64,000 bases of DNA. It comes from an uncultured Anaerolineales bacterium. Its GTDB lineage: Bacteria > Chloroflexota > Anaerolineae > Anaerolineales > UBA11858. Shown here piece after piece: positions 9,944 to 22,676 of the stretch (position 1 is the stretch's first letter; each line of letters begins with the position of its first letter). A program made the position numbers and the translations under genes. The stretch is from the NCBI GenBank assembly GCA_964603385.1, contig CAZRUS010000001.1:12187-76186 (forward strand). The letters run 5' to 3'. The notes under the pieces were generated by a model. The model was not told the origin of the DNA and did no database searches. It was given only the letters and a program-made list of their open reading frames with translations.

Positions 9944-9962
9944 CAGGCCAAGGAGCACGGTG

Positions 9963-9991: not shown

Positions 9992-10052
9992 GGGGAAGGG
10001 ATTTGACGGCGTTTCTGGAACAAAAAAGGCTGATTTTAGGGGAATTTGATGT

Positions 10053-10787
10053 CTATCGGATAGAAATATCAGCTTCGAGGGCTGTTATTTCAAATTCTTG
10101 TTGAATTTTTGGCTTTCTCGCAGGGTGAAAATCAATCACCTGGATGCGGTCAACCGGCTGGCTGACTGCCAGGGCCGCCTGATATCCGGCAGCGCTATCC
10201 AGATCAATCAGCTGGAGTCCGGGAAGGGCTGCTGCCATCAACAAGGGATCCCCCCCGGCTTCCTTGAAGATGGTGTTGTGGGCTTTATAGAGGGCTTCTT
10301 TCTGCGCCCAGCTGCGGAAAAATGCTTCCTCCTGTTGCTGTGGATTCAATCTCCGGAAATCTGTTTTTTCCTGGCTGCTGTACCAGCGCCGCTGCATTGC
10401 CTGGTAATCAGCAAGAGGATAATGTTCCTGGATATCGATCCCGACCTGTAGATTCCGGGCAAGAGCACATAGGAAATACTCGCCGGAGTGAGAGAGATTG
10501 AACACAAGGCTTTCCGCTGGAATAAATGGCTTTCCGGTTGGATTCCTTCGAATTTGGATCTCCCCCGGATCTTTGTGGAGCAGACTCCCCAGAATACGGC
10601 GCAGCAGGAACCGGGAGAGCAAAGCTGCCTGACGTGCCCTCTCACTGAGCAGCCGGAGGGCACGATCCTGCTCGGCCTGGCTGAGCAGACTGATCATGGA
10701 GGGGCTCACTGGAAGCCAAGGCTGAAAACTTGTTCGCCAGATGTGGATTTCGTTCTCCCGTGGACCGGGTATTTCAGAGGACGTCAT
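10053..10787 (-). CDS. pfaE: 4'-phosphopantetheinyl transferase, Sfp/PfaE type
   Basis: GKPFI...FNLSHSG... and W.QKEALYKA motifs, 244 aa. Its ATG overlaps the pfaD stop (ATGA). Confidence 0.8.
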   Translation of the reverse strand: MTSSEIPGPRENEIHIWRTSFQPWLPVSPSMISLLSQAEQDRALRLLSERARQAALLSRFLLRRILGSLLHKDPGEIQIRRNPTGKPFIPAESLVFNLSHSGEYFLCALARNLQVGIDIQEHYPLADYQAMQRRWYSSQEKTDFRRLNPQQQEEAFFRSWAQKEALYKAHNTIFKEAGGDPLLMAAALPGLQLIDLDSAAGYQAALAVSQPVDRIQVIDFHPARKPKIQQEFEITALEADISIR

Positions 10788-12400
10788 CAGTTAATCAGCC
10801 GGTTCCAGGCCGTGGGAACACGGATGCCCTGCAGCCGCAGGTCTGTCAGCCGATATAAATAAGCGGCTCCCTGGAGCAGGGCATCGGCAACAGAGACCAC
10901 ACTTCTGTTTTCCGGGTTTTCAAGCCAGGTACCGCGGACCCAGTCGTTGAAAGCGCCCATTGAGGGACCACACCAGATTTGATAATCATAAGCCCGCTGT
11001 GGATCCCCCTGGATTCCCCAGTGAGTGGCTAATCCGAGATACCAACGGAAGATCAAGGCCATCTGGCGCTTGGGATGATCCTCCGCTTTCTGCAGCTGTT
11101 CGGGATCACGTTGGCTGAAAAATTGGACGCATTCCTGCCAGATCTCGTCCAGGCTGCGCTGGAAATATTTTTCCTCCAGCTCTGTTCGTATCCCAGGAGC
11201 CAGCTCTGTGATGCTTTCATGCTGCCGGTAGATCTCGTAAAGCTTCTGCGCCCGCAGGGGAAACATGGACCCTCGTTTGAGAACCTGAACATTGACTCCC
11301 ATTTCGAACATATCGGCAGCGGGCGCCATCATGACATCCGTTGCAGCTGCTTCTGCCAGGAGAGTTTTCACCCGCCGGGAGGTGGCTGCCTCCAGACAGC
11401 TTTGATTCACGGATCCGGTGACGATGTAATCAGCGCCCATTGCAAATGCTGCCAGGGCAGAAGCTGGGGTTCCGATTCCCCCCGCCGCGCCTATCCTGAT
11501 TGACACGGGATAGGTGCGCTTCTCCTGGATCTCATCTCTCAAGGCCATCAGGGACGGCAGCAGGCTGGTCAGCGGCCGGTTATCGGTATGACCGCCAGAG
11601 TCGGCTTCCACAGTGATATCATCAGCTATGGGAAAACTTGCTGCCAGTTCAGCTTGCTGGGAAGTGATCCTGCCTTGTGCGACCAGAGGACGGAGGATTT
11701 TGTCGGGGGCGGGTTCAAGGAACTGCAGAGCGACTTCCCGGCGGGAGAGTTTTGCAATGATTTTATGGTGGGACCGAATTCTTCCCTGAGAATCCCGCCG
11801 CAGTCCAGAGGCACGGTACTGGACCAGGGTGGGGGTCATTTTCAAAAAGGCAGAGGCTTCGATGGTGTTGATGTCTTCCTGGAGATATAAATCTACAAGG
11901 GCCTGCTCCAGGGCTGCTTGGTGTGGGCTGTGAATGAGATTAAATGCAAAGGGTTTTTCCCCCAGTTCGGATTTGATCCGGGAGATGGCCTTTTGCAGGT
12001 GCGGGGGGGAAACACCTCCTGCACCATAGGATGCCAGATATCCGGCCTTTCCCATCGCGATCACCAATTCCTCACCGGAGATTCCGTTGGCCATCGCTCC
12101 AGCCATATAAGGACTGCTCAGGCCGTGATCCCGCAAAAAGCCTGCATCTCCGAAATCAGCAGGCCTCTGGGGGCGTAAATAAGCCGCCAGCGGCCTGCCC
12201 CCGGCAGATGCTGATGTGGGATAAACTTCACCCTGGTTGACAGCAGAGAGTGTGCCTTCTCCATGGAGGAAATACACCGGGGCTGTGAGATCCTCAAGCA
12301 GCTCCTTGATACCTGGGGGGTCACTGCGGATGGCACTTTCAGGGCCTATCCAGCTGCCCTTCCCTGTTCTGTGAGGGTCTTGGTTCTGAATTGTCCTCAT
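10787..12400 (-). CDS. pfaD: PfaD-family enoyl reductase (trans-acting, NMO/2-nitropropane-dioxygenase fold)
   Basis: 537 aa. AGAMANGI..., AGYLASYGAGG, ...EADSGGHTDNRP..., GAAGGIGTP are typical of PfaD/FabK-like ER proteins of PUFA synthases. Confidence 0.9.
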   Translation of the reverse strand: MRTIQNQDPHRTGKGSWIGPESAIRSDPPGIKELLEDLTAPVYFLHGEGTLSAVNQGEVYPTSASAGGRPLAAYLRPQRPADFGDAGFLRDHGLSSPYMAGAMANGISGEELVIAMGKAGYLASYGAGGVSPPHLQKAISRIKSELGEKPFAFNLIHSPHQAALEQALVDLYLQEDINTIEASAFLKMTPTLVQYRASGLRRDSQGRIRSHHKIIAKLSRREVALQFLEPAPDKILRPLVAQGRITSQQAELAASFPIADDITVEADSGGHTDNRPLTSLLPSLMALRDEIQEKRTYPVSIRIGAAGGIGTPASALAAFAMGADYIVTGSVNQSCLEAATSRRVKTLLAEAAATDVMMAPAADMFEMGVNVQVLKRGSMFPLRAQKLYEIYRQHESITELAPGIRTELEEKYFQRSLDEIWQECVQFFSQRDPEQLQKAEDHPKRQMALIFRWYLGLATHWGIQGDPQRAYDYQIWCGPSMGAFNDWVRGTWLENPENRSVVSVADALLQGAAYLYRLTDLRLQGIRVPTAWNRLIN

Positions 12401-12416
12401 GATGGTGATCCTTTTT

Positions 12417-15400
12417 TCAGCTGTTCTCCCCGATCAAAGCCAGGTTGGAAATCTGGTAAATTCGCAGATCTTCCCGGAGCAAATTCCCATCTCCGGTAAT
12501 CTCCAAACGGCTGCCGGTCTGGTTGACCTCTTTTAGGTGGATCTCAAGTTGAATGCTCTCAACTTCCCGGGTAATCTGTCCCCGGTATTTCCAGCGGATG
12601 ACCTCTTCCGGTTTGAGCCGCCAGTGCACTGGAGATGATTGACCCAGCTGATCAGCTGCAGCCTGAATTGTTTGAGACATCAGCTCCACACCCAGTGAGC
12701 CGGGCATGACCGGATCCTGATGGAAATGGGCTCTGAAAAACCAGGCTTGAGGGTCGATTTTTTCTGCCAGGTAGAGGGATCCAGCCTGATACTCTCCGCC
12801 GGCCGGCGCAAACCAGTAGCGTGTTACCGGAGGCAGGCAGGCCTCTCCTGGTGATAATTCCGGTTTGTCATCAGGAGAAAACCAGCGGCCGGTATCGGGG
12901 TGATTTCGAAAAAAAGTGCTGAATTGACGCCCGCCGTCGATTCCCTTCTGGCGGGATAGCATCCCAGACGGAAAATAGCCAAAGGAGGCTTTCCCGCGGA
13001 AGAACATCCTGCCGCTGGAGGAGAGCTCAAAGTTGTAATGCTGGATGATGGTGCTCTGCAGGGTGCTGGAGGTGGTCAGCTCTACCCGGGTGGAGATCGT
13101 CGAGCCCGGCGGAGGCGGATCAGCGGTTAACTCTGCCTGCCCATCCAGATTCCGGAAGTAATAATCAACCTTTGGGCCGCTGAGGATGGAACCCATGTAT
13201 GCTGAAAGAAAGCCGCAGGGTTGAAGAGCGATCTCCAGCAGGGCAACATAAGGAAGGCTGGAGCGGTTGGGTAGATACCAGGCTTTTTGGGGCAGGTCGT
13301 ATTCAGCCCGCAGGCTTGCTCCCGGCTGCACACGATTGGCTGCGGCATTCAGCTCCACCACTCGGTCAAGAAACTGCATCTTCCCATTGGGGAGCAGGGG
13401 AATCCGCTGCCCGGCAAAGGGGGTGTAGGAGCGCCCAAAACAGGCAGAGGGGTCCCCCAAAGTAAAGGCAGCGATCTGATCGTGGGTGAATAATACTCTC
13501 TTCGAGGGGGACCGGGAGCTATTCTGCAGGGAGGGGGAGGAAACCAGCTCAAGTGCTCGGGACAGGTTCCCGGTCAGGGTTTTCATGCTGGAAAAATAAC
13601 TGCGCTGAGCATTTGCCAATCTGGAGGATTGTCTGGCAAGCACTTCGAAGGGATCTGCAGCGATTTGTTCGCTGTGCGGGTCTGCCTTTGTGGAGGGCTG
13701 CTCAGGAAGCGCTCCCGGAGCGGCCTCCTTGGTTGTGGGCCGCTTCCGGGTCAGTCTCTGGCCAAGTCGTTTCCACTGGGAGACGTCTGATTTCCACCCT
13801 GGTAGCTGCTCCGCAATTAATGGGTCCAGCTGAAGGGGGACCCGGTGGCTGATCAACTGAGCGAGCACGTTCAGGATGCCATCCAGATCCGGTTGATATT
13901 TTTTATTAATGGCACAGACTGCGTGGGGACGATCCTTGAGGATGGCCTCTATCCAGCGAGTGCAGGTTTTTTGGGGGCCAACTTCAATGAACAAGCGGGT
14001 TCCATCCCGGTAAACCTGTTCTACCAAGCGGGGAAAATCAACCCGTCGGCAGATCATGCCTGCCAGTGAGCGGCCGATTTCTTTGGAGTCCGGGGAAAGA
14101 GGTTGATATTCTGCTGCTGAATAAAAATTAATTGCTTCCCCAGGGAAGACGGATTCTGTCAGGAGTTCAACAAACGCAGGGTATTCCCCGGCCATTGCAG
14201 GGTTGTGAATGGATGCCTGAAAGGGCATGGGCAGAGAGCGGCATCCCAGCGCTTTGATCACCCGCTGGCAGGCATTTTGTTCACCGGCAATGACCACCTC
14301 ATCCGGTGTGTTGATGATGGTCAGGAATGCCTTGGGCTCTTTTTCCAGGACGTCAAGGCATTCTTGGGGAGAAGCTTTGAGTATGTAGGAATCCCAGAAG
14401 CCAGCCTCAAATTCTTCAGGGGCCCAATAGTCTCTGACTGCGGTCATCGAACCGAACAGGCGCTCTTTAAAGAGGGCGGATCGCCGCCATTTGAGACTGC
14501 TCTGTTCTCCGTTTCGCCAGATTCCATTGGCCCAGAGCATGCTGATTTCACCCAGGCTGTACCCGAAGGCTGCCCGGGGTTGAAGGGAAAAAACTTCTTT
14601 CAGGATTAAAGTGTGGAGTACAGCCAGACTGGTCCCGGATTCAATTAGATCAATTGGCTGCTTGAAAAAGTGTTCTTGTCGTTCCTCCAGGTCCTTTTTT
14701 GAGAGAGGAGCTAAACTGCGGGGGTAGATCAGGGTCTCCGCCAGCGATTGGCGGATATTTCCGGTCGTTTTTTTAACCATTTCGTGCAGCCCAGGAAAGA
14801 TCTGGAATAACTCTCTGCCCATGCCTGGGTAGCTGTTAAAAGCCCCCGGATAAATCAATGCTGTTCCCTGATCTCCCAGCGGCTGGGGGACAAAACAACT
14901 GCCCGCAGGCGTGGTCAGCTGTTTTCCGGACTTGATGCATCGCTCCAAACCCTTCTGGAGAAGCCTAATTTCTTTCCTGCTCTTTTCCCGGTTCTCTGCC
15001 AGGATGCAGCCCCTCAGCCGGGGGTGTTCTTTTTCAGCCAGGAGCAAGCGCCGGGCAGCCAAGACTTTCAGCGGCTTTCCCTCTTCAATCCCACGTTGCA
15101 ATGCCTGGAGGGATACCTGAATTTCACGCAGCGATTGACCGGAAAACGGCAGAAGTGTCTTGCTTTCCGGAACCATCCCGGTCCGTATCCTGGGAAGGGA
15201 CTTGCGGTGGATGGCTTCCTCCAGCAGGATATCCTGCAGTCCTGCACCAGTAGAGAACAGCACCAGCGACCGGCGGGGAGTTTTTCCATGATCCAGCCAG
15301 GGTCGGGGAGATTCTGGAGCGTAAAAAGGACCGGCAGCAGGAACCCCCTCCAGCCGGGCGCGGAGCGTTTTCGGGAATCCGGGAATGGTCCGTCGGTGCA

Positions 15401-16064
15401 GGGTCAGCACAGCCTGGATAAAACCAGCCATACCGCTGTCAACCTCGATCGAGGTGGATACCCCTCCCAGGGCACAAATTCGATGGGAGGGATCAACCGG
15501 CCAGAGATCGGCCAGCTTTTCCCAGAGGTTTTTGTTGAGGTCTGCGGGATCAGCTGGCATCTGGAGATATTCGGGCGGATATTCTCCCCACTTTGTTGAG
15601 ATGCTTTCCAGGCTGCCATCAGTTTGCGGGTGGATTCCGTCCAGGACCAGACGGGCATAACTCTGCTGGGGGCTGCCAGGCGAGGAGATCACAAAGGCGC
15701 CGACGCCGATTGAATCTGATGCCAGGATCAGCACCTGATGGTGGGGATTTTTGTGCAGAAATACAGCTGCGGTGCTCAGAGCCCCAGGAATGGAAACATC
15801 CCCCGCCTGTTGTTCGAGGATGATGATGTCCTGGTTTTCTGAAAGAAAACGATCGTTCGAATCCCTGGGTTGGATCAGCAGAATCAAAGCGCAGCGATCC
15901 CGGCTGCTGATCCCCGCATCCTCCAGAGCGCTCTCAGCAACCCTGGAAAGCTCCGGAGGTGAGGAAGAGAGCAGGGATTTACCCTGGAAAAGGGCGGTTT
16001 CCAAGGAAGTTAAGGAAGGATGGCTGCCGTACGCTGCAGCCAATCCAGTGATGATCCCATTCAT
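12417..16064 (-). CDS. multidomain PKS/FAS protein: degenerate KS-like (no active-site Cys) + acyltransferase + FabA-type dehydratase region
   Basis: The N-terminus aligns by eye with the KS C-terminal half (RPWL...PRRSLVLFSTGAG) but has no DxACSS. The AT has GYSLGEISMLWANG. The C-terminus has FFRAHFHQDPVMPGSLG (FabA/PfaC DH active site), preceded by a pseudo-DH hot-dog. Confidence 0.85.
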   Translation of the reverse strand: MNGIITGLAAAYGSHPSLTSLETALFQGKSLLSSSPPELSRVAESALEDAGISSRDRCALILLIQPRDSNDRFLSENQDIIILEQQAGDVSIPGALSTAAVFLHKNPHHQVLILASDSIGVGAFVISSPGSPQQSYARLVLDGIHPQTDGSLESISTKWGEYPPEYLQMPADPADLNKNLWEKLADLWPVDPSHRICALGGVSTSIEVDSGMAGFIQAVLTLHRRTIPGFPKTLRARLEGVPAAGPFYAPESPRPWLDHGKTPRRSLVLFSTGAGLQDILLEEAIHRKSLPRIRTGMVPESKTLLPFSGQSLREIQVSLQALQRGIEEGKPLKVLAARRLLLAEKEHPRLRGCILAENREKSRKEIRLLQKGLERCIKSGKQLTTPAGSCFVPQPLGDQGTALIYPGAFNSYPGMGRELFQIFPGLHEMVKKTTGNIRQSLAETLIYPRSLAPLSKKDLEERQEHFFKQPIDLIESGTSLAVLHTLILKEVFSLQPRAAFGYSLGEISMLWANGIWRNGEQSSLKWRRSALFKERLFGSMTAVRDYWAPEEFEAGFWDSYILKASPQECLDVLEKEPKAFLTIINTPDEVVIAGEQNACQRVIKALGCRSLPMPFQASIHNPAMAGEYPAFVELLTESVFPGEAINFYSAAEYQPLSPDSKEIGRSLAGMICRRVDFPRLVEQVYRDGTRLFIEVGPQKTCTRWIEAILKDRPHAVCAINKKYQPDLDGILNVLAQLISHRVPLQLDPLIAEQLPGWKSDVSQWKRLGQRLTRKRPTTKEAAPGALPEQPSTKADPHSEQIAADPFEVLARQSSRLANAQRSYFSSMKTLTGNLSRALELVSSPSLQNSSRSPSKRVLFTHDQIAAFTLGDPSACFGRSYTPFAGQRIPLLPNGKMQFLDRVVELNAAANRVQPGASLRAEYDLPQKAWYLPNRSSLPYVALLEIALQPCGFLSAYMGSILSGPKVDYYFRNLDGQAELTADPPPPGSTISTRVELTTSSTLQSTIIQHYNFELSSSGRMFFRGKASFGYFPSGMLSRQKGIDGGRQFSTFFRNHPDTGRWFSPDDKPELSPGEACLPPVTRYWFAPAGGEYQAGSLYLAEKIDPQAWFFRAHFHQDPVMPGSLGVELMSQTIQAAADQLGQSSPVHWRLKPEEVIRWKYRGQITREVESIQLEIHLKEVNQTGSRLEITGDGNLLREDLRIYQISNLALIGENS

Positions 16065-17806
16065 ACTGCTGCAGACTCCAGTTGGTTTTGACGGAAAAGG
16101 GGCTGCAAACGTTGGCTGAGGGTGATTTCAGCGCCAGCAACCCGGCTGAAAATCCGACCCTGCCTGTCATGGCTGGTGACATCCGCGACCAGGGTATGGC
16201 TGCTGGAAGACCGAACAGTCATGGTGACATAACTGGTTTGTCCAAATTCCAATGGTCGATACTGGGTACCGCCGGCAATCTTCAAGGGCAGACCGACGCT
16301 GCCCTGATACAGGTGAGCCCAGATTAGAAGACTCTGCAGATGGACATCTGCCCAGAAAGGATTGAATGAACGAACAGGAAATTGACCCATCTGCTTTCTT
16401 GTCAACCTGGGAAGATGACAGCGAGTGGTCAGCCCGGCGGGAGAGTGGTTGAGTACTTCTTCCACCCCCTGGAAGCTGGCCCCGTGGAAAAGCGTCTGAT
16501 CTCCGTACAGGCGATCGCCCGGGATGGCTTCACGCTGCTGAAAATCAGCCGCAACAGGCGCTGGAGCCTCTAGTGATGAGCGGCGAAGGGTGATTTCAGC
16601 CTGATAATGCTGCTGTTGTTTTCCGTCCTTGGTTTGACTGCTGATCCGGGCTTCGAGAACCAGTGCCTGTTTTCCCCGTTTGGGGAGGTTTATGTCAAGT
16701 TGATATTCTGCAGATAGATCGTCATTAAAAACAATACCTTTGAAGACGCGGTAATCACTCACTGCAGAAAATTTGTATCCAGGAAAGAGATCTTCACAGC
16801 TGTTAATCATCCAGGCGACGGCACAGACAGTTGGGAGGACTGCCTGCCCACCAATGACATGATCCACCAGGAAAGGATTCTCAACCAGGGAAAGCTGCCG
16901 GTAGATCCGGAAGCTGTCCGGTGGATTTTCCAGCCCATGATCTGAAACAGGCAGCGGACTCCCCACCACCCACTGCGGTTGGTGAGGAACATTTCCAGAC
17001 AGCAGGTGGATCAGGGTTTCAGGTCCTTCTTGCTTGGAGATCAGGCCAACATTTTTTCTTTTCAGGATTCGCCTCAGCTGAGGGCTGACCATCCCGCCGT
17101 CCCAGGGGCCCCAGTTGATAGAGAGCACCTGGATGTCTGGCTGAGTGCGCTGAAGGTAATGGGCAAATTTATTGAGCACTTCATTGCTCAGGCTGTAATC
17201 CGCCTGGCCGGGGTTGCCATAGTAGGCCGCTACTGAGGAAAACAGCACCAGGTGCTGTAGATTAATCCGGGGAATGATTTCCAGCAGGTTCATTAATCCA
17301 TCTACTTTAACCCCGTAAACCAGTTCAAAATCCTTTTCCTGTTTATCCTGGAGATGTTTATCGGCCAATGCTCCGGCGCCGTGGATTATGCCTGTGATTT
17401 GATCAGCGATCGGGGAGAGCACTTCGCGCAGGTTGTCCAGATTCCGGATGTCTGCCTGAAGATAGATTGCCTGACCGCCTGCGAGCTGGATCTTTTCCAG
17501 CGTCCGCTGGATTTCCCGGCTGGATAACACCGCTCCGACCAGATGATCCAGTTCTTTCGGGGTAAGTTTGCCATGCTGAGAGTGATTAGCCTTGAGCGCA
17601 TTCTGCTTGAGCTCAGTCTCTTCCCATACACCTTCAGCCCAGGAGGGTTCCTCATCTAGAAGGGCTGAGCGGCCGAAGAGAGTCAGCCGGCAATGGAAGA
17701 CTGATGCCAGGGCGACTGCACAATCAGCAGTGATGCCTTTCCCTCCTCCACTGATCAGAAAATTGCTCTCGGAATCTGGCGTGGGGTTCGTAGAAGCCTT
17801 TGACAT
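16061..17806 (-). CDS. ketoreductase + PKS-type dehydratase (PfaA C-terminal equivalent)
   Basis: ISGGGKGITADCA Rossmann motif, YGNPGQADYSLSNE KR catalytic region, then LVDHVIGGQAVLP (HxxxGxxxxP PS-DH motif). It overlaps the next ORF by 4 nt (ATGA). Confidence 0.85.
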   Translation of the reverse strand: MSKASTNPTPDSESNFLISGGGKGITADCAVALASVFHCRLTLFGRSALLDEEPSWAEGVWEETELKQNALKANHSQHGKLTPKELDHLVGAVLSSREIQRTLEKIQLAGGQAIYLQADIRNLDNLREVLSPIADQITGIIHGAGALADKHLQDKQEKDFELVYGVKVDGLMNLLEIIPRINLQHLVLFSSVAAYYGNPGQADYSLSNEVLNKFAHYLQRTQPDIQVLSINWGPWDGGMVSPQLRRILKRKNVGLISKQEGPETLIHLLSGNVPHQPQWVVGSPLPVSDHGLENPPDSFRIYRQLSLVENPFLVDHVIGGQAVLPTVCAVAWMINSCEDLFPGYKFSAVSDYRVFKGIVFNDDLSAEYQLDINLPKRGKQALVLEARISSQTKDGKQQQHYQAEITLRRSSLEAPAPVAADFQQREAIPGDRLYGDQTLFHGASFQGVEEVLNHSPAGLTTRCHLPRLTRKQMGQFPVRSFNPFWADVHLQSLLIWAHLYQGSVGLPLKIAGGTQYRPLEFGQTSYVTMTVRSSSSHTLVADVTSHDRQGRIFSRVAGAEITLSQRLQPLFRQNQLESAAV

Positions 17807-17809
17807 GTT

Positions 17810-18502
17810 TTATCCCTTACCCAGAGTCAGGGTCACTCGGGACTGCCTGCTGAGTCCAACTTCCAGAAGATCATGGCGGGGATCATGCAGCTCCCGGATG
17901 ACAAAGGCCGCTTTCTCTTCCGCCTTCATGGAGGGGTCGAGATCAATGTATCTGCAAAAAACGTCCGGTACTTCCCGATAAAATGTTTTTACCAGACCGC
18001 TCAAACCGCCGCCTTCCTGGAAAGAACCTGCTGCTGAGGTACCCAGCCTTCCATCTAACTGGGTGATTGTCAGAAAAAATTTTCTACCTGGAGGCTGATT
18101 TTCCGTTTCTTTGAAATGCTGTGCCAGAAATTTTGCCAGGAAAAAGGTCATTTTTACTATGCCGCGGTCTCTCGCCTGGGAAAAAGCCAGCGGGTGTAAG
18201 TGAATAATTCCGGCAAAATCTCCCACCCTTTCAGCTTCCCTGGACAGCTGCTGCTGCATATCATCTGGATCCTCACTGTCGATCCTCAACCGGGAGAGGT
18301 CTGTCGGAAGCTCACGGGGATCTTCACTCAGGTACGGTGTTTGCACCAGCTGCAGCGGCCAGCCAACGTTTTGCAAAGCCTCAGCAAACTGAAGCGTGAA
18401 TTTGCTGCCGTCGTCGGTTACCAGCAGAGGATGAACAGGGTTGATCTCCAGCTCCAGACGATCAGGCCGGGGAAGATCCCTCAACTGTACCGGATTTGCC
18501 AT
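17810..18502 (-). CDS. probable KR structural (pseudo-KR) subdomain / linker protein of the split PfaA module
   Basis: 230 aa with no catalytic motif. By position it corresponds to the region between the ACPs and the KR in PfaA. It is in the same frame as the KR-DH ORF, separated only by TAA-AAC-ATG. Confidence 0.5.
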   Translation of the reverse strand: MANPVQLRDLPRPDRLELEINPVHPLLVTDDGSKFTLQFAEALQNVGWPLQLVQTPYLSEDPRELPTDLSRLRIDSEDPDDMQQQLSREAERVGDFAGIIHLHPLAFSQARDRGIVKMTFFLAKFLAQHFKETENQPPGRKFFLTITQLDGRLGTSAAGSFQEGGGLSGLVKTFYREVPDVFCRYIDLDPSMKAEEKAAFVIRELHDPRHDLLEVGLSRQSRVTLTLGKG

Positions 18503-19860
18503 CAGCTTTGAGGCTTTTTTTTTTCTTCTACCGGCTGCAGATGGGATCGTTCCCTCATAAGCGTGATGATCTCATCTAATGTGCGCATTTCTCCCAGGAG
18601 GTCTCCATCCACCGGAGGAAGGTCCGGGAAATGATCTTCTACCGCGCCGAGAATCTCCACCCGCTTGATGGAGTCGATTCCCAGGTCGGCTTCCATATCC
18701 ATTGATGTTTCCAGCATTTCCACAGGGTAGCCGGTTTTTTCGGCCACCGTTTCCAGCAGAAAGGCAGCGAGGTCCAAATTATCTGTCAAAGGCTCTTCCG
18801 CCTGTGGATCAACCTCCTCCGGCCCTGGAATTGGATCCGGCATCGGGGTTTCCGCCGGGGGTGTTTCCAGGTCCACTGGAGGGTCGGTCTCCAGCAGATT
18901 CTCCGCTGTTTTCAGGTAAACAATGATGTCTTCCAGGGTGCGGGATTCAGCCAGAATTTCTGTATCTGCAGGAGGAAGCTCCGGGTAGCGGTCTTCCAGC
19001 GCTCCCAGGATTTCGACTCTCTTGATGGAGTCAATACCCAGATCTGCTTCCATATCCATGGTCAGATCAAGCATTTCAGCCGGGTAGCCGGTTTTCTCAG
19101 CGACAATCTCCAGCAGGGAGCTGTTGATCTCTTCGAGATGGAAAGCTGATTGAAGAACGGGCGATGAAGTCATGAGCTGGGAACTGCGGACGGAAGACTG
19201 GATTTCCGGTCGGGGGGACTGCCCTGGTTGAAGAGGTTGCTCATCCACCTGATCAGCAGCGGAGGATGGGAGCGGAGATTCCAGAGCGGATGAAGGGGGG
19301 GGAAAGGAATCGGAGCCGGAAGACAGCTTGCTACCATCTAGCTGCTGGTACTGCTCTGTCAGCAAGGTCACGAAAGCGTGGGAATATTCCGCCTGATAGT
19401 GCAGGAACTGCTGATGAACCTCCAGTTCTTTTTCTTGCAGGCGATGAAAACCAGCCAGACTGTCCTGAATGACTTCCAGGGAATGGGCGCTGGCCGCGCC
19501 GCTGCCGTTTTCCAGCACCACTGCCTGCTGATCCAGAAGACCCTGGAAGATGCCCTGAAATTCTCTCAGCTGGGTCAGGTACTGCTGGTGGATATCCACT
19601 GTTCTCCGCTGATGATCAACGGCATGCTGGACACCCTGCTGAATGATTTCCAGCTGGGCACTGGGCTGCCTATCCGGCTTGCTGGGGAGAACGCTGGGCG
19701 GTAATGAGGACATCCTGGATCCATTTCCAGAGGATGTTTGCAGATATTTTGCCGGACTGGTCTGGATTTTGCGGCCGTCAGCCAGCGCTTCCTGAAATGC
19801 TCGCTTGCGTTCCGCAGGGGTGTAATTGCTGCCGTTGAGGGGAATCTGTAATTTAGCCAT
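18502..19860 (-). CDS. tandem acyl carrier protein (2 x ACP) with an N-terminal Q/H-rich domain of about 235 aa and unknown function
   Basis: Two copies of EADLGIDSIKRVEILGA (PUFA-synthase-type phosphopantetheine site) separated by a Pro/Glu-rich linker. The stop overlaps the next ATG (ATGA). Confidence 0.85.
   Translation of the reverse strand: MAKLQIPLNGSNYTPAERKRAFQEALADGRKIQTSPAKYLQTSSGNGSRMSSLPPSVLPSKPDRQPSAQLEIIQQGVQHAVDHQRRTVDIHQQYLTQLREFQGIFQGLLDQQAVVLENGSGAASAHSLEVIQDSLAGFHRLQEKELEVHQQFLHYQAEYSHAFVTLLTEQYQQLDGSKLSSGSDSFPPPSSALESPLPSSAADQVDEQPLQPGQSPRPEIQSSVRSSQLMTSSPVLQSAFHLEEINSSLLEIVAEKTGYPAEMLDLTMDMEADLGIDSIKRVEILGALEDRYPELPPADTEILAESRTLEDIIVYLKTAENLLETDPPVDLETPPAETPMPDPIPGPEEVDPQAEEPLTDNLDLAAFLLETVAEKTGYPVEMLETSMDMEADLGIDSIKRVEILGAVEDHFPDLPPVDGDLLGEMRTLDEIITLMRERSHLQPVEEKKKPQS
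18556..19125 (-). repeat. internal tandem duplication encoding ACP1 (about 18913-19125) and ACP2 (about 18556-18768)
   Basis: The two segments of about 210 nt align by eye at the DNA level (e.g. cttgatggagtc[g/a]at[t/a]ccca...gcttccatatccat...gggtagccggtttt). Confidence 0.7.
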
Positions 19861-19871
19861 AGCTGTACCCT

Positions 19872-22676
19872 TTATTTTGCATTCATGTAGATCTCAGGAG
19901 CGGGAGCAGTGGTTTTTGAGTAAGGATCAAAGCCGTTCAGTGGCAGACCGATCACCCGCAGTTTGGCGACTGCCTGCCGCAGCTGAAGGTCCGAGGACTT
20001 CTCCCTGCTGGGATTCAGAGAGACGGCATCATGGGGACGATCTGCCAGGATGTCCCTGACCAGGTTGCCCAGTACCTGTCGCGGTCCCACCTCCACAAAT
20101 ACCCGCACCCCGGATTGATAAAGCGCTTCTATCTGGGATTTGAAGATCACCGGATGGAGGATGTGTTGGGAGAGGATTTCCCTGACTGCAGTTTTATTTT
20201 CTGGGTAGGGCTTTCCCGTTGTGTTCGAAAATACCGGAATCGTTGCTGGATGAAAGTCTTCTTTGGCAACTGCAGCTGAGAAGGGTTGGGAGGCGTGTTC
20301 TACCAGCGGTGTGTGAAAGGCTGCAGAAACCGGCAGCCGGGTGAATTTAATTCCTTGACTGCTGAAATGATCCTCAGCCCGGGTGATGGAATCACTGGGG
20401 CCGGCCAGCACCATCTGGTCAGGCGAGTTCTCGTTGGCAATCACCAGATCAGGAAAACTGGATATTTCAGCTGCAATTAATGAATAGGGTGCTTTCACTG
20501 CAGCCATGGCGCCGGCATCAAAATCTGGGTTTTCCGGGGGACGCATGGCCTCTCCGCGGGCCTTGACAAGCCGGAGGAAAGCGGAATCATCCAGGACACC
20601 GGACGCCCAGAGAGCGGTTAATTCACCAAAGCTGTGACCAGCGGTAAAATCCGGCTGAAATCCTGCCTGCAGGAGGAGCTGATAAAGGCCGCAGCTGATC
20701 ACACCAATCGCAGCCTGGGCGTAATCGGTTTCCCGGAGAGATTTTTTCTGATTCAGCAGGGAGGTTTGAGTATAGGCCGGGGCAGGATATAAAACTTCTG
20801 AAAGAGGTTTCTGACCTGCCTCGGCAAACAGCAGATCCATGGCCTCGATCACTTCTCGCAGCGGGGGGAAATTGATTACTGCTTCCTGGAGCATTTGCAA
20901 GTACTGGGATCCCTGCCCGGGGAAGAGGGCGGCAATTTTTGCCTGGTTATCCAGACTCTGGGAACGGTAGGTAATTCCTCTGGGGTGATCCCACCCCGGG
21001 GAATCAGGATCTTTGTCCAGCAGCTCTGCCGCCGTTTCCAGATATGCTGCCGTTTCGGCTGCACTCCGGGCCACAAAGCCCACTCTGGGTTGATCAGCAG
21101 GCGGATTCCCCTGACGGCTCTTGTTGCACAACCTCTGGAAGGCACCTTCAGATCGGTCGTTTTTGAGCCCAGGGATCAGCTGCTGAATCTGCTCCCGCAT
21201 TGCTTTGGAGGTGGGAGCCGAGAGCAGGATGGTTTCTGCTGTCGGAGCCAGCCTGCTTCCAGGTCCTTGCGGATGGGGATTTTCTTCCAGGACAAGGTGA
21301 AAGTTGGTCCCTCCGAAACCGAAAGCACTGACCGCTGCCCTGCGGGGCTGCTGGTCAGTCCTGGAAAACCAGGGCCGGGCCTGATTATTGATATAGAAAA
21401 GGCTATCCTCGAGTTGCAAATCTTCCGCTGGCTGGGAAACGTTGATGGTGGGCGGCAGCACTTTTTGATCCAGCGCCAGAGCTGCTTTGATCATCCCGGC
21501 TGCGCCCGCGGCTGCCTTGGTGTGTCCGATCTGGGATTTGACCGAGCCAATTGCAATTGTTTGTCCTTTTCCGTTGGGAGGTCCAAAAACTGCGTTTAAT
21601 CCTGTGATTTCTGCTGGGTCCCCGGCTTTTGTACCCGTTCCGTGGGCTTCGATCAGACCGATGCTTCTGGGATCGATATCGGCATCCCGGTAAGCTCGCT
21701 GGACAGCCAGCGATTGTCCGGCGGGCCTGGGAGCATAAATGCTTTTGAATTTGCCATCGCTCGAGCTGCCAATCCCGCGGATAACTGCATAGATATGATC
21801 GCCATCCCGTTTGGCATCCTCCAGGCGCTTCAGGATCACCATGCCGAGTCCCTCCCCTATCAGCATGCCGTCCGATGATTGATCAAAAGGGCGGATTTCC
21901 TGGGAGGGGGAAAAGGCAGGTGTTTTGCTGAAACATAAGTACGTGAATGGGGAGTTGTCGGTGTCCACCCCGCCGGTGATCATCAGATCCGCCCGGCCTT
22001 CCAGCAGTTCCGACAGGGCCATTTTTACCGCCGCCAGACTGCTGGCACACGCAGCATCGACTACTGCGTTGATTCCACCCAGATCCAACCGGTTGGCGAT
22101 CCGACCGGCGATCACGTTCCCCAGCAGACCAGGAAAGGAGTTTTCATTCCAGGGGGCATAGGCAAGTTTGATCTTTTCGATAATCATCTCCGTGTCTTCT
22201 GTGGAAAGACCGCTGCTAATCAGCACCCTTCTCCAGATTGGATACTGCAGGCGTGCGCTGAGATCAGAGATCAGCTTTTGTCCTCCGGCAACACCAAGCA
22301 CCACACCAGTCCGGGAGCGGTCAAATTCCCGTTCCGCTCCATACCCGGCATCCTCCATGGCGTCACGGGCAACAACCAGACCCAGCAGCTGCGAGGAATC
22401 GGTCACCTCAAGCAGATTGGGCGGCAAACCGAACTCCAGCGGATCAAAATCAATATCCGGGATAAATCCCCCTCGTTTGCAGTAGGTTTTATCCTCTGCT
22501 TGAGGATCGGGATGGTAATAATCATTCACCCTCCAGCGGTCCTCTGGGACATCGGTGATGCAGTCAATCTTGTTAATTATGTTTTCCCAGTATGACCGTA
22601 GATCAGGAGATCGGGCAAAAACCGCAGCCTGACCAATTACCGCAACAGGAGTTTTTTGTAAAGAACCGGGGTTCAT
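19872..22676 (-). CDS. pfaA: beta-ketoacyl synthase + malonyl-CoA:ACP acyltransferase (PfaA N-terminal equivalent)
   Basis: KS motifs VDAACASSLAAV, EAHGTGT and GSVKSQIGHTKAAAG. The AT has GHSFGELTALWASG. 934 aa. Confidence 0.9.
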   Translation of the reverse strand: MNPGSLQKTPVAVIGQAAVFARSPDLRSYWENIINKIDCITDVPEDRWRVNDYYHPDPQAEDKTYCKRGGFIPDIDFDPLEFGLPPNLLEVTDSSQLLGLVVARDAMEDAGYGAEREFDRSRTGVVLGVAGGQKLISDLSARLQYPIWRRVLISSGLSTEDTEMIIEKIKLAYAPWNENSFPGLLGNVIAGRIANRLDLGGINAVVDAACASSLAAVKMALSELLEGRADLMITGGVDTDNSPFTYLCFSKTPAFSPSQEIRPFDQSSDGMLIGEGLGMVILKRLEDAKRDGDHIYAVIRGIGSSSDGKFKSIYAPRPAGQSLAVQRAYRDADIDPRSIGLIEAHGTGTKAGDPAEITGLNAVFGPPNGKGQTIAIGSVKSQIGHTKAAAGAAGMIKAALALDQKVLPPTINVSQPAEDLQLEDSLFYINNQARPWFSRTDQQPRRAAVSAFGFGGTNFHLVLEENPHPQGPGSRLAPTAETILLSAPTSKAMREQIQQLIPGLKNDRSEGAFQRLCNKSRQGNPPADQPRVGFVARSAAETAAYLETAAELLDKDPDSPGWDHPRGITYRSQSLDNQAKIAALFPGQGSQYLQMLQEAVINFPPLREVIEAMDLLFAEAGQKPLSEVLYPAPAYTQTSLLNQKKSLRETDYAQAAIGVISCGLYQLLLQAGFQPDFTAGHSFGELTALWASGVLDDSAFLRLVKARGEAMRPPENPDFDAGAMAAVKAPYSLIAAEISSFPDLVIANENSPDQMVLAGPSDSITRAEDHFSSQGIKFTRLPVSAAFHTPLVEHASQPFSAAVAKEDFHPATIPVFSNTTGKPYPENKTAVREILSQHILHPVIFKSQIEALYQSGVRVFVEVGPRQVLGNLVRDILADRPHDAVSLNPSREKSSDLQLRQAVAKLRVIGLPLNGFDPYSKTTAPAPEIYMNAK

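What the first reader, a model, noticed from the sequence alone, without database searches (positions are those of the whole stretch)
10053..22676. Atypical single-KS pfa-like (PUFA-synthase-type) secondary-lipid synthase operon with unknown product
Seven back-to-back minus-strand ORFs carry every catalytic signature of an iterative PUFA-synthase-type FAS/PKS, but not in the canonical pfaABCDE layout. In order they are:
- KS-AT: DAACASSL, EAHGTGT, GHSFGE.
- 2xACP: LGIDSIKRVEILGA, twice.
- A 230-aa pseudo-KR-like ORF.
- KR-DH: GGGKGIT; HxxxGxxxxP.
- KS-like/AT/FabA-type DH: GYSLGE; AHFHQDPVMPG.
- PfaD enoyl reductase.
- Sfp-type PPTase.
There are five differences from characterised systems. (1) The PfaA module is split over four ORFs. 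(2) The only intact KS active site is in the first ORF; there is no PfaC-type KS-CLF didomain. (3) There are only two ACPs. (4) AT and FabA-type DH are fused behind a degenerate KS-like domain. (5) I see no thioesterase, reductase or acyltransferase release domain. Nearly all junctions are 1-4 nt overlaps (ATGA) or gaps of 16 nt or less, so this is one translationally coupled unit. The product (PUFA, hydrocarbon precursor, glycolipid alkyl chain or other) cannot be inferred.
Basis: partly seen in the sequence, partly recalled or inferred. Interest (0 to 1): 0.8.

Follow-up and report, generated by a model that had tools for sequence, protein, structure and literature searches.

The report
One-ketosynthase Pfa-type lipid synthase operon
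This is a real, intact, stripped-down relative of the bacterial omega-3 fatty-acid synthase: it has lost its second ketosynthase, is transcribed together with the enzyme that makes its building block, is conserved in many uncultured Anaerolineales (Chloroflexota), and its product is still unknown.

Summary
Seven tightly packed minus-strand genes (10053-22676) encode a Pfa-type iterative FAS/PKS:
- KS-MAT
- 2 ACPs
- an inactive pseudo-KR
- KR plus PKS-type DH
- a dead KS' pseudo-domain, a PfaB-type AT and one FabA-type DH
- PfaD
- an Sfp-type PPTase

There is one catalytic KS and no PfaC-type KS-CLF.

I add four things.
1. The unit probably starts upstream, at 26881. It also takes in an acyl-CoA carboxylase (CT, BC, BCCP) and BioY, and it ends at a strong terminator-like hairpin (9956-9924).
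2. The layout is not a one-off. It recurs in about 30 loci from Anaerolineales MAGs and metagenomes. Sister Anaerolineae keep KS-CLF-AT-DH, so the second KS was lost.
3. The "degenerate KS-AT" is ordinary PfaB architecture, and PfaB is the chain-releasing acyltransferase. A release function is therefore present.
4. Published KS specificities say KS_C alone extends 2-cis intermediates. A methylene-interrupted PUFA is therefore unlikely, and a saturated or mono-cis-unsaturated chain made without oxygen is my best inference.

The closest described layout is the uncharacterised cyanobacterial "clade II / Type G" cluster. My verdict is a new variant of a known kind, of moderate interest.

The parts
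26882..27100 (.). Divergent intergenic region upstream of the carboxyltransferase gene. This is the likely promoter region of the 11-gene unit.
   Evidence: 219 nt lie between the CT start (26881, minus strand) and the start of a divergent alpha/beta hydrolase (27101, plus strand). The consensus scan found no sigma-70-like site here, so the promoter assignment is an inference.
25337..26881 (-). Acyl-CoA carboxylase carboxyltransferase subunit (514 aa, PccB/AccD-type fused CT).
   Evidence: Pfam Carboxyl_trans, E 4.6e-185. TIGR01117 scores 724 bits, below its 998.8 cut-off, so this is family-level only. It is conserved upstream of the pfa genes in relatives at 63-72% identity.
23845..25329 (-). 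Biotin carboxylase subunit (494 aa).
   Evidence: Biotin_carb_N, CPSase_L_D2 and Biotin_carb_C. NF006367 acetyl-CoA carboxylase biotin carboxylase scores 601 bits (cut-off 597). The gap to CT is 7 nt.
23296..23811 (-). Biotin carboxyl carrier protein (171 aa).
   Evidence: Biotin_lipoyl, E 1.6e-19.
22724..23296 (-). BioY biotin transporter component (190 aa).
   Evidence: Pfam BioY, E 3.1e-40. It overlaps BCCP by 1 nt and lies 47 nt upstream of O1, with no strong terminator between them.
19872..22676 (-). O1: PfaA N-terminal piece, KS_A-MAT (934 aa). KS is about residues 9-507 (nt 21156-22652). MAT is about residues 580-882 (nt 20031-20939).
   Evidence: TIGR02813 scores 1244 bits (cut-off 1010). 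Cys209/His345/His385 triad motifs, GHSFGE and AAFH (malonyl-type) are present.
18502..19860 (-). O2: a Gln-rich linker region followed by two tandem ACPs (Ser277 and Ser396).
   Evidence: PP-binding matches twice. TIGR02813 positions 1500-1703. LGIDSIKRVEILGA occurs twice.
17810..18502 (-). O3: pseudo-KR (structural SDR-fold subdomain of the PfaA KR), catalytically inert.
   Evidence: TIGR02813 positions 1758-1977, E 5.5e-17. A family profile hits FabG/SDR structures at E 4e-7 to 1e-6. The Gly-rich NADPH motif is TDDGS and the catalytic Tyr/Lys positions read Phe/Gly. It is fused to the ACP gene in L001 and to KS-AT-ACP in L004.
16061..17806 (-). O4: catalytic KR (about residues 10-270) plus PKS-type DH (about residues 296-571).
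   Evidence: KR E 8.7e-33; PS-DH and PKS_DH_N; TIGR02813 positions 1994-2581. GGGKGIT, YSLSN, HVIGGQAVLP and DVHLQ are present.
15180..16064 (-). O5 residues 1-295: KS' pseudo-domain, a shrunken non-catalytic ketosynthase fold and a remnant of the CLF of a KS-CLF-AT-DH ancestor.
   Evidence: No Pfam KS hit. No invariant Cys or His across 15-19 homologues. AF2 model: mean pLDDT 76.8. Foldseek best hits are PKS ketosynthases, E about 1e-14, TMq about 0.5. O5 residue 197 aligns to residue 806 of the 1873-aa L004 protein, i.e. the end of its CLF.
13815..15179 (-). O5 residues about 296-750: KS-AT linker and PfaB-type acyltransferase (Tyr502-Ser503 in GYSLGE). This is the probable chain off-loading domain.
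   Evidence: TIGR02816 PfaB_fam scores 157.7 bits (cut-off 144.3). PDB 9ry8 (S. baltica PfaB) matches at E 1.8e-53 over residues 296-751. GYSLGE is invariant in 19 homologues. The Tyr-Ser signature and the long-chain acyl-transfer role come from PMC12895367.
12417..13814 (-). O5 residues about 751-1215: linker, pseudo hot-dog and one FabA-type dehydratase/isomerase (His1113, Glu1127).
   Evidence: FabA PF07977, E 1.9e-27. It aligns to E. coli and P. aeruginosa FabA structures with HFHQDPVMPGSLGVE against HFxGDPVMPGCLGLD. Strongly conserved blocks span residues 867-975 and 1108-1125.
10787..12400 (-). O6: PfaD enoyl reductase.
   Evidence: TIGR02814 scores 652 bits (cut-off 449). PfaD_N, NMO and FabD_helical_ins are present.
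10053..10787 (-). O7: Sfp-type PPTase with PUFA-type P1a (TGKP) and P1b (FNLSH) motifs.
   Evidence: AASDHPPT_N and ACPS; it is HetI-like. Motifs were read against the definitions in PMC3098273. An alternative start 30 codons downstream was used by the JGI caller.
9924..9956 (-). Terminator-like hairpin (13-bp stem followed by T8) closing the unit.
   Evidence: It is the top-ranked terminator-like site in 9000-28500. It lies in the 208-nt gap after O7.

Best explanation
**Shown.** The locus encodes a complete, intact, reduced Pfa-type iterative type I FAS/PKS.
- It has one catalytic ketosynthase (KS_A), one malonyl transferase, two ACPs, a KR with a separate pseudo-KR, a PKS-type DH, a PfaB-type acyltransferase behind a dead KS' pseudo-domain, a single FabA-type dehydratase/isomerase, a PfaD enoyl reductase and its own PPTase.
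- It sits directly downstream of, and is probably co-transcribed with, a three-subunit acyl-CoA carboxylase and BioY.
- It derives from a KS-CLF-AT-DH ancestor by loss of the PfaC-type KS and decay of the CLF.
- It is maintained by selection in a clade of uncultured Anaerolineales.

**Inferred mechanism.**
1. The carboxylase supplies malonyl-CoA, and the MAT loads it on the two ACPs.
2. KS_A performs every condensation.
3. KR, the PKS-type DH and PfaD give fully reduced cycles.
4. At one programmed chain length the FabA-type DH makes a 3-cis-enoyl intermediate, which KS_A extends (FabA/FabB-like logic).
5. The PfaB-type AT off-loads the finished long chain.

In characterised PUFA synthases only KS_C/KS_B extends 2-cis-enoyl intermediates, and that KS is absent here. 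The product is therefore most likely a saturated and/or mono-cis-unsaturated (at most non-methylene-interrupted) long-chain fatty acyl group made without oxygen, not EPA- or DHA-type PUFA. Whether it serves as bulk membrane fatty acid or as a specialised lipid is open.
For: - **Domain content and intact catalytic motifs:**
- **No KS between O4 and O5:** the genes overlap by 4 nt. No other KS appeared in any ORF scanned across the window.
- **Conservation:**
  - The same gene order without KS_C is seen in L001, L002, L003, L014, L016 and L063.
  - About 21 metagenome loci with O4 identity of at least 46% show it too.
  - Source databases hold 28 protein clusters of 1157-1316 aa with this architecture.
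  - Catalytic blocks are invariant at only 36-47% overall identity to the distant homologues (one near-identical sequence is 88%), which indicates purifying selection.
- **Derived loss:** sister Anaerolineae (L004, L006-8, L010, L012-13, L017) carry a 1873-aa KS-CLF-AT-DH protein that is colinear with O5 from residue 197 onward. The window clade is a single clade in an NJ tree of the AT region.
- **KS' pseudo-domain:**
- **PfaB identity and role:**
- **ACC-BioY directly upstream:** 5 of 5 genome-level members where the flank is visible, and 14 of about 16 metagenome members. It is absent from KS_C-containing relatives such as L004.
- **KS specificity rule:** KS_A takes C2/C4, 3-cis and 2,3-saturated substrates; KS_C/KS_B takes 2-cis exclusively; both are essential for DHA (PMC11962503).
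- **Anaerobic host context:** hydrogenase maturation genes and Hdr/MetFV-like genes are in the window.
- **Not a recent transfer:** cluster GC is 0.546 against 0.558 for the window, and the flanking SRAP-glycerate kinase genes are syntenic in relatives.
Against: - No product data exist for any member; all relatives are MAGs or metagenome contigs.
- The KS specificity rule comes from gammaproteobacterial and thraustochytrid enzymes that are about 50% identical or less. KS_A of this clade could have broadened its range.
- A trans-acting KS-CLF encoded elsewhere in the genome cannot be excluded from a 64-kb window.
- ACC linkage is frequent but not universal: L101 lacks it. It could also be a historical accident of insertion next to a housekeeping operon.
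- Co-transcription is inferred from spacing only.
- Retention of a PfaB-type AT and a FabA-type DH is also what a PUFA-making system would show.
Confidence: 0.55

Rival explanations
1. It is still a true PUFA synthase making a methylene-interrupted polyene such as EPA, DHA or ARA. Either KS_A has taken over the 2-cis elongations, or a KS-CLF is encoded elsewhere and acts in trans.
For: - The O1 KS-AT is about 50% identical to Colwellia PfaA and clears the PfaA model cut-off.
- A FabA-type DH/isomerase, a PfaB-type AT with the Tyr-Ser signature, and PUFA-type PPTase motifs are all retained.
Against: - Both KSs are individually essential in the DHA synthase tested, and KS_A does not accept 2-cis substrates.
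- There are only two ACPs and one DH, against 4-6 ACPs and two DHs in producers.
- The CLF remnant is decaying: there are almost no invariant residues in positions 1-250.
- No KS-CLF is present in the window.
Confidence: 0.12
2. It is a specialised 'secondary lipid' synthase, like Hgl or Ars. It would make a very long saturated or hydroxylated alkyl chain that is handed to tailoring enzymes encoded elsewhere (glycolipid, diol, hydrocarbon, wax) and coexists with an ordinary type II FAS.
For: - Pfa-like clusters with reduced domain sets are known to make C22-C32 alkyl chains (PMC13291983; PMC3098273).
- The PfaB-type AT prefers chains longer than C16.
- The closest described layout (cyanobacterial clade II) belongs to specialised metabolism.
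Against: - No tailoring, reductase, type III PKS, glycosyltransferase or NRPS/PKS genes flank the cluster here or in relatives. The neighbours are housekeeping genes.
- The divergent alpha/beta hydrolase is not conserved next to the cluster.
- The conserved partner is a malonyl-CoA supply module, which fits high flux better than a minor metabolite.
Confidence: 0.28
3. It is a decaying or non-functional remnant of a Pfa cluster, or an assembly artefact that dropped the KS-CLF.
For: - The CLF-derived N-terminus of O5 is poorly conserved.
- Some other KS_C-less loci (L025, L028) look fragmented and lack PfaD nearby.
Against: - All seven ORFs are intact with complete catalytic motifs and coupled junctions.
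- The O4/O5 ATGA overlap leaves no room for a lost gene.
- The same layout recurs in about 30 independent assemblies at 32-69% identity, with invariant active sites.
- An identical O5 is present on an independent JGI contig.
Confidence: 0.03

Closest known systems
Canonical bacterial PUFA synthase PfaABCDE (Shewanella, Photobacterium, Moritella, Colwellia; Shulse & Allen Types A/B)
   Same: - The enzyme families and their order match: a PfaA-type KS-MAT-ACP-KR-DH (colinear with TIGR02813), a PfaB-type KS'-AT with the GYSxG Tyr-Ser signature, a FabA-type DH, PfaD ER, and an Sfp-type PPTase with the FNxSH motif.
- The O1 KS-AT is about 50% identical to Colwellia PfaA.
   Different: - There is no PfaC KS-CLF.
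- There is one FabA-type DH instead of two, and it is fused to PfaB.
- There are two ACPs instead of 4-6.
- PfaA is split into four genes.
- The cluster is in an operon with acyl-CoA carboxylase and BioY.
- The host is an anaerobic Chloroflexota lineage rather than a marine gammaproteobacterium.
Fused pfaBC clusters [KS-CLF-AT-DH(1-2)] with split pfaA (Shulse & Allen Types C/D/H/I; Anaerolineae, SAR324 and deltaproteobacterial loci such as L004 and L022)
   Same: - These are the direct relatives. O5 is colinear with the CLF-end-AT-DH part of the 1873-aa L004 protein (34% identity).
- The pieces upstream of pfaBC have the same domain order, though differently fused (in L004 KS-AT-ACP-pseudoKR is a single gene, followed by KR-DH), and PfaD lies downstream in the same way.
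   Different: - The catalytic KS (about 450 aa) and about 160 aa of the CLF are missing, and the remainder is non-catalytic.
- ACC-BioY linkage is seen in the window clade and not in these relatives.
Cyanobacterial 'clade II' Pfa-like clusters (Microcystis, Anabaena/Trichormus, Nostoc, Scytonema; Shulse & Allen Type G)
   Same: - pfaA is split, with an interposed Rossmann-fold protein of unknown function (compare O3).
[quoted passage not shown]
- In Microcystis the KS of that protein is also absent, so it is a single-KS system.
- The product is unknown (PMC13291983).
- A Moorena homologue is hit by O5 at 35% identity.
   Different: - Those clusters are flanked by, and presumed to feed, a hybrid PKS-NRPS. 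Here there is none, and the conserved partner is ACC-BioY.
- The phylum differs.
- I did not test orthology with a tree that includes cyanobacterial sequences.
E. coli FabA-FabB anaerobic unsaturated fatty-acid route (type II FAS)
   Same: This is a functional analogy for the inferred chemistry. A FabA-type dehydratase/isomerase (O5 shares the HFxxDPVMPG active site) makes a 3-cis intermediate, which a KS then extends. That is the substrate class KS_A accepts.
   Different: - Here the activities are domains of a type I Pfa-derived megasynthase with its own ACPs and PPTase.
- The analogy is an inference and has not been demonstrated.
Heterocyst-glycolipid (Hgl, Type F) and Azotobacter phenolic-lipid (Ars, Type P) secondary-lipid synthases
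   Same: They are Pfa-derived iterative synthases with reduced domain sets that make non-PUFA long alkyl chains (PMC3098273; PMC13291983).
   Different: Those clusters carry dedicated downstream or tailoring partners (type III PKSs, or Hgl-specific genes), and Hgl lacks the DH/I domains. Here the FabA-type DH is kept and no tailoring genes are linked.

Membership tests
Pfa-type PUFA synthase (canonical PfaABCDE) | PfaA-type KS-MAT-tandem ACP-KR-DH(PKS) module | tested here: met
   O1-O4 are colinear with TIGR02813 (positions 4-930, 1500-1703, 1758-1977, 1994-2581). O1 alone scores 1244 bits against a cut-off of 1010. The module is split over four genes and has only 2 ACPs.
Pfa-type PUFA synthase (canonical PfaABCDE) | PfaB-type acyltransferase (KS' pseudo-domain plus AT with the Tyr-Ser GYSxG motif) | tested here: met
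   TIGR02816 scores 157.7 bits against 144.3. PDB 9ry8 PfaB matches at E 1.8e-53. GYSLGE is invariant. The KS-fold N-terminus lacks catalytic residues.
Pfa-type PUFA synthase (canonical PfaABCDE) | PfaC-type second ketosynthase paired with a chain-length factor (KS-CLF) | tested here: not met
   There is no KS between O4 and O5 (4-nt overlap). The O5 N-terminus is a shrunken, non-catalytic CLF remnant. No other KS appeared in any ORF scanned across the window. A copy elsewhere in the genome is not excluded.
Pfa-type PUFA synthase (canonical PfaABCDE) | Two FabA-type dehydratase/isomerase domains | tested here: not met
   O5 has one FabA domain (residues 1087-1205) preceded by one pseudo hot-dog. 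Relatives with two DHs have matches about 1.4 kb longer.
Pfa-type PUFA synthase (canonical PfaABCDE) | PfaD enoyl reductase and a dedicated Sfp-type PPTase with PUFA-type motifs | tested here: met
   TIGR02814 scores 652 bits against 449. ACPS and AASDHPPT_N are present. P1a TGKP and P1b FNLSH are present; the P0 motif is only approximate (LRLLS).
Pfa-type PUFA synthase (canonical PfaABCDE) | Produces long-chain methylene-interrupted PUFA | not testable with these tools
   No cultured member and no lipid data exist. The published KS specificities argue against it.
Secondary lipid synthases sensu Shulse & Allen 2011 (Types A-T) | A pfa-homologous FAS/PKS cluster with at least one KS, ACP and KR, and a proximal KS related to PfaA | tested here: met
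   definition in PMC3098273.
Secondary lipid synthases sensu Shulse & Allen 2011 (Types A-T) | Domain order equal to one of the 20 described Types | tested here: not met
   No Type described in the text has KS-MAT / ACP2 / pseudo-KR / KR-DH / KS'-AT-DH1 / ER / PPTase. The nearest are D/H (split pfaA, fused KS-CLF-AT-DH2) and G. The only Chloroflexi entry (Type R, Roseiflexus) is a single KS-MAT-CLF-ACP-KR gene. Figure 1 of the paper could not be viewed, so this comparison rests on the text.
Secondary lipid synthases sensu Shulse & Allen 2011 (Types A-T) | Coexists with a primary (type II) fatty-acid synthase | not testable with these tools
   Only 64 kb of the genome is available, and it holds no fab genes. 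The source contig (372 kb) could not be retrieved.
Cyanobacterial clade II / Type G Pfa-like clusters | Split pfaA with an interposed Rossmann-fold protein; fused pfaBC of AT plus 1-2 DH/I without a functional CLF | tested here: met
   O3 is an SDR-fold pseudo-KR. O5 is KS'-AT-DH. The description is in PMC13291983.
Cyanobacterial clade II / Type G Pfa-like clusters | Directly flanked by hybrid PKS-NRPS genes | tested here: not met
   The flanks are ACC-BioY upstream and SRAP, glycerate kinase and hydroxypyruvate reductase downstream. No PKS or NRPS is in the window.
Cyanobacterial clade II / Type G Pfa-like clusters | Common descent (the KS or AT groups with the cyanobacterial clade) | not tested
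   No cyanobacterial loci were fetched. The only link is a 35% identity hit to a Moorena protein.

The most novel reading that the evidence does not exclude
In this Anaerolineales lineage the Pfa-derived, single-KS synthase, co-transcribed with the cell's acetyl-CoA carboxylase and a biotin transporter, is not a 'secondary' pathway. It would be the main fatty-acid synthase, or the only oxygen-independent route to unsaturated fatty acids. That would be a previously unrecognised kind of bacterial type I FAS that evolved by reduction of a PUFA synthase.
Probability: 0.15. Interest if true: 0.8.

Novelty: new variant of a known kind. Interest (0 to 1): 0.5.

Why it matters
**For PUFA synthase programming.** PUFA synthases are unusual among iterative PKS/FAS because they need two ketosynthases, and how that pair programmes double-bond placement is an active question. 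This clade is a naturally occurring, conserved system that kept everything except the second KS and CLF. Its product would show directly what KS_A, a PKS-type DH, a FabA-type DH and PfaB can do on their own.

**For the host lineage.** The tight and recurrent linkage to an acyl-CoA carboxylase and BioY suggests a high-flux role. It raises the testable possibility that some abundant, uncultured anaerobic Chloroflexota make bulk or monounsaturated fatty acids with a Pfa-derived megasynthase.

**For genome mining.** Rules that label any pfaA, pfaD or PfaB hit as 'PUFA' would mis-predict omega-3 production for these organisms.

Tried and rejected
- **Source contig.** An exact look-up of O5 and of its 100% identical database twin P0001 found no contig on record. 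Only a 28-kb JGI contig with the identical O5 could be fetched. The rest of the genome, including FAS II genes, a second ACC or a trans KS-CLF, could therefore not be examined.
- **Cluster names.** The cluster-member look-up gave no names or accessions.
- **Literature.** Searches for Anaerolineae or Chloroflexi together with pfa, PUFA synthase or FAS II found nothing on this cluster type. There were only passing mentions that Anaerolineales PfaA-KS sequences exist with unconfirmed products.
- **Alpha/beta hydrolase as release enzyme.** I considered the divergent alpha/beta hydrolase (27101-27862) as a candidate thioesterase partner. I rejected it because it is not detectable next to the operon in any relative.
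- **Multiple independent KS_C losses.** L015, L025 and L028 fall outside the main clade. However, L025 is fragmented and lacks PfaD nearby, so I do not rely on this.
- **Structure of O3.** I used a profile search against PDB sequences instead.
- **Promoters.** The sigma-70 scan gave no more sites than shuffled sequence (9 found against 9.2 expected), so I make no promoter claim.
- **One failed call.** One family scan failed on a bad coordinate and was repeated.

Full report

Yes. Seven minus-strand ORFs occupy 10053-22676.

Their junctions are an 11-nt gap, a 1-nt overlap, a 3-nt gap, a 4-nt ATGA overlap, a 16-nt gap and a 1-nt overlap.

| ORF | Coordinates | Content | Key scores |
|---|---|---|---|
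| O1 | 19872-22676 | KS + KS-C extension + malonyl-type AT | TIGR02813 PfaA 1244 bits (cut-off 1010) |
| O2 | 18502-19860 | two PP-binding domains | PfaA positions 1500-1703 |
| O3 | 17810-18502 | no Pfam hit | PfaA positions 1758-1977, E 5.5e-17 |
| O4 | 16061-17806 | KR + PS-DH | PfaA positions 1994-2581 |
| O5 | 12417-16064 | PfaB-family AT + FabA | TIGR02816 157.7 bits (cut-off 144.3) |
| O6 | 10787-12400 | PfaD | TIGR02814 652 bits (cut-off 449) |
| O7 | 10053-10787 | Sfp-type PPTase | AASDHPPT_N + ACPS |

O1 to O4 are therefore four colinear pieces of one PfaA. All quoted motifs are present, together with the catalytic residues one expects:
- KS Cys209/His345/His385.
- GHSFGE and AAFH in the MAT.
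- Two DSI serines in the ACPs.
- GGGKGIT and YSLSN in the KR.
- HVIGGQAVLP and DVHLQ in the PKS-type DH.
- GYSLGE in the second AT.
- HFHQDPVMPG...LGVE in the FabA-type DH.

I scanned the longest ORF at almost every position in the 64 kb with Pfam. None of the others contains a ketosynthase, thioesterase, reductase-release domain or fab gene.

**2. The unit is larger than reported.**

Four more minus-strand genes lie immediately upstream:
- a PccB/AccD-type carboxyltransferase (25337-26881);
- biotin carboxylase (23845-25329; NF006367 scores 601 bits against a cut-off of 597);
- BCCP (23296-23811);
- BioY (22724-23296).

Their spacings are 7, 33 and -1 nt, with 47 nt before O1.

The best terminator-like hairpin in 9000-28500 (13-bp stem, T8) sits at 9956-9924, in the 208-nt gap after O7.

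The likely transcription unit is therefore 26881 to about 9924, eleven genes in all. This is inferred from spacing, not shown. The promoter scan was uninformative: 9 sites were found against 9.2 expected.

**3. What are O3 and the N-terminus of O5?**

*O3.*
- A profile of 17 O3 homologues hits FabG/SDR structures at E 4e-7 to 1e-6 over most of its length.
- The Gly-rich NADPH motif reads TDDGS, and the catalytic Tyr/Lys positions read Phe/Gly.
- O3 is fused to the ACP gene in L001, and to KS-AT-ACP in L004.
- It is therefore the non-catalytic pseudo-KR subdomain of the PfaA ketoreductase, expressed separately.

*O5 residues 296-751.*
- They match the crystal structure sequence of Shewanella baltica PfaB (9ry8) at E 1.8e-53.
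- PfaB consists of a non-catalytic KS' pseudo-domain and an AT. The catalytic Ser of that AT is preceded by a strictly conserved Tyr.
- PfaB transfers or hydrolyses long (>C16) acyl chains and sets the final product (PMC12895367). The AT is labelled 'acyltransferase (thioesterase)' in PMC11962503.
- O5 has GYSLGE, invariant in 19 homologues.

*O5 residues 1-295.*
- They give no Pfam KS hit and have almost no invariant residues, and no invariant Cys or His.
- An AlphaFold2 model of residues 1-420 (pLDDT 76.8) finds PKS ketosynthases as its best structural matches (E about 1e-14, TMq about 0.5).
- This region is therefore a shrunken, dead KS fold.

**4. Where did the second KS go?**

A scan of species-representative genomes with O5 returned Anaerolineales and Anaerolineae MAGs as the best relatives, at about 40% identity. 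tblastn mapping of all window proteins on the loci shows two layouts.

*Layout (i), the same as the window.* It appears in L001, L002, L003, L016, L014 and L063.
- No KS lies between KR-DH and the AT-DH protein.
- The flanking SRAP-glycerate kinase genes are often syntenic as well.

*Layout (ii), with the second KS retained.*
- Other Anaerolineae (L004, L006-8, L010, L012, L013, L017) carry a 1873-aa KS-CLF-AT-DH protein.
- SAR324, deltaproteobacterial, gammaproteobacterial and actinobacterial loci carry KS-CLF-AT-DH2 or a separate PfaB/PfaC.

O5 aligns with the L004 protein from its residue 197 to L004 residue 806, which is the end of the CLF. About 450 aa of KS and about 160 aa of CLF have no counterpart in O5.

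In an NJ tree of the AT region, the window groups with L001-3, L014, L016 and L063 as one clade nested among KS-CLF-bearing Anaerolineae. The single-KS state is therefore derived.

A metagenome scan anchored on O4 added about 21 loci (O4 identity at least 46%) in which the O5 homologue follows KR-DH directly. The protein database holds 28 clusters of 1157-1316 aa with this architecture, some already labelled 'PfaB family protein'.

The catalytic blocks are invariant while overall identity to the distant homologues is only 36-47%. An identical O5 sits on an independent JGI contig. This is a maintained variant, not decay or misassembly.

**5. The carboxylase link.**
- CT-BC-BCCP(-BioY) lies directly upstream of the KS-AT gene in all five genome-level members where that flank is visible (window, L001, L002, L003, L016).
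- It does so in 14 metagenome loci as well (L081, 82, 84, 87, 88, 89, 91-94, 98, 100, 102, 103).
- L101 is a clear exception, with opposite-strand genes upstream. L085 looks rearranged.
- KS-CLF-bearing relatives do not show the link. For example, L004 has a response regulator upstream.
- Shulse & Allen noted one precedent of an ACC gene inside a pfa-like cluster, in Koribacter (Type R).

**6. How it most likely works.**

*Shown.* The locus holds a full set of domains for iterative, fully reducing chain extension, plus one FabA-type dehydratase/isomerase and a PfaB-type off-loading AT. It holds one catalytic KS.

*Established elsewhere* (PMC11962503).
- In both bacterial and thraustochytrid PUFA synthases, KS_A accepts C2/C4 acyl-ACPs, 3-cis acyl-ACPs (C6, C12, C18) and 2,3-saturated acyl-ACPs.
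- Only KS_C/KS_B accepts the 2-cis-enoyl intermediates (C8, C14, C20).
- Inactivating either KS abolishes DHA.
- The 2-cis elongation is what places double bonds three carbons apart.

*Inference.* Without KS_C, this synthase can run saturated cycles and can extend a 3-cis intermediate, as FabB does after FabA. It cannot build a methylene-interrupted polyene. The expected product is a saturated and/or mono-cis-unsaturated long acyl chain, made without oxygen and released by the PfaB-type AT.

Several observations fit a simpler, higher-flux fatty-acid role:
- the window also encodes hydrogenase maturation and Hdr/MetFV-type proteins, suggesting an anaerobic host;
- there are only two ACPs and one DH;
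- the cluster is coupled to malonyl-CoA supply.

This is a prediction. The KS rule comes from enzymes at most about 50% identical to O1, and a trans KS-CLF elsewhere in the genome cannot be excluded.

**7. Comparison with what is known.**

*Shulse & Allen 2011.*
- None of their 20 Types matches this layout as described in the text.
- The nearest are D/H (split pfaA, fused KS-CLF-AT-DH2) and G.
- The only Chloroflexi entry (Type R, Roseiflexus) is a single KS-MAT-CLF-ACP-KR gene.
- The PPTase carries the P1a (TGKP) and P1b (FNLSH) motifs. These place it with the PUFA-like Types A-L rather than M-T.

*Cyanobacterial 'clade II'.*
- This is the closest published description (Microcystis, Anabaena, Nostoc; PMC13291983).
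- There, pfaA is split by a Rossmann-fold protein of unknown function, and pfaBC is reduced to AT plus one or two DH/I without a CLF. In Microcystis the KS is gone too.
- Those clusters are uncharacterised and flanked by PKS-NRPS genes, which are absent here.

*Membership.*
- The locus fails two defining features of a canonical PUFA synthase: the KS-CLF pair and two FabA-type DHs. I therefore do not file it as one.
- It is a Pfa-derived synthase of a layout not previously described for Chloroflexota and with no assigned product.

**8. Verdict.**

- a release function is present;
- the unit includes ACC-BioY;
- the layout is widespread in Anaerolineales and has a cyanobacterial parallel.

Novelty: a new variant of a known kind. 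Interest is moderate (0.5).

The most novel reading still open is that this is the lineage's main fatty-acid synthase, or its anaerobic route to unsaturated fatty acids. It would deserve much more interest. It could be tested first by a simple gene census of the complete MAGs, which I could not do because the source contig could not be retrieved.

Noticed in passing
window 47845-56154 (minus strand): A run of four genes resembles the acetogen-type MetFV-Hdr methylene-THF reductase module: an HdrBC-like CCG/4Fe-4S protein (47845-49386), MetF-type MTHFR (49308-50327), a MetV-like DUF5981 protein (50345-51028), and a 1550-aa fusion of GltD/NfnB-like, HdrA-like FAD and ferredoxin domains (51502-56154). 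This points to an anaerobic, possibly Wood-Ljungdahl-linked host.
   Followed up: no
window 56691-62346 (minus strand) and 62535-63614: Hydrogenase maturation genes HypE, HypD, HypF and a HypB/CobW-type GTPase, followed by a VKOR-family protein.
   Followed up: no
window about 29700-33600: About 4 kb where every ORF of at least 150 aa, on either strand, lacks any Pfam hit (29560-30888+, 29737-30516-, 30598-31311-, 31351-32130+, 32221-33486+, 32518-33663-). I did not establish whether these are real genes, or which strand is coding.
   Followed up: partly
window 27101-27862 (plus strand): A membrane-anchored Abhydrolase_5 protein is transcribed divergently from the carboxylase-pfa unit. I tested it as a possible release partner, but it is not detectable beside the operon in any relative.
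   Followed up: yes
window 6788-9844 (minus strand); L001, L002, L037, L081, L084, L093, L107: SRAP (SOS-response-associated peptidase), glycerate 2-kinase and a glyoxylate/hydroxypyruvate reductase follow the pfa cluster. SRAP, and where examined also the glycerate kinase, stays syntenic with the cluster in relatives at 65-72% (SRAP) identity. This argues for vertical inheritance of the whole region.
   Followed up: partly
window 19170-19860 (O2 residues 1-230): The region before the two ACPs is Gln-rich with two HQQ[YF]L-containing repeats. It is conserved in relatives (tblastn covers residues 1-448) but matches no Pfam family. It may be a helical dimerisation or linker element of the split PfaA.
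   Followed up: no
L114, L124, L126, L127 (metagenome loci): Further reduced or altered layouts exist. L114 has an AT-DH protein starting almost directly after KR-DH, with no KS' at all (Microcystis-like). L124, L126 and L127 have KS'-AT-DH-DH without a second KS. The Pfa-BC module seems to have been trimmed repeatedly.
   Followed up: no
window 40604-43599 (plus strand): A DtxR-family iron repressor fused to a FeoA domain, next to FeoB.
   Followed up: no
window 3877-4869 (plus strand) versus tRNA-Pro 3941-4018: The 330-aa plus-strand ORF overlaps a tRNA-Pro gene and has no Pfam hit, so it is probably spurious. The JGI caller instead calls the opposite-strand 249-aa ORF (4075-4824), which also has no Pfam hit.
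   Followed up: partly
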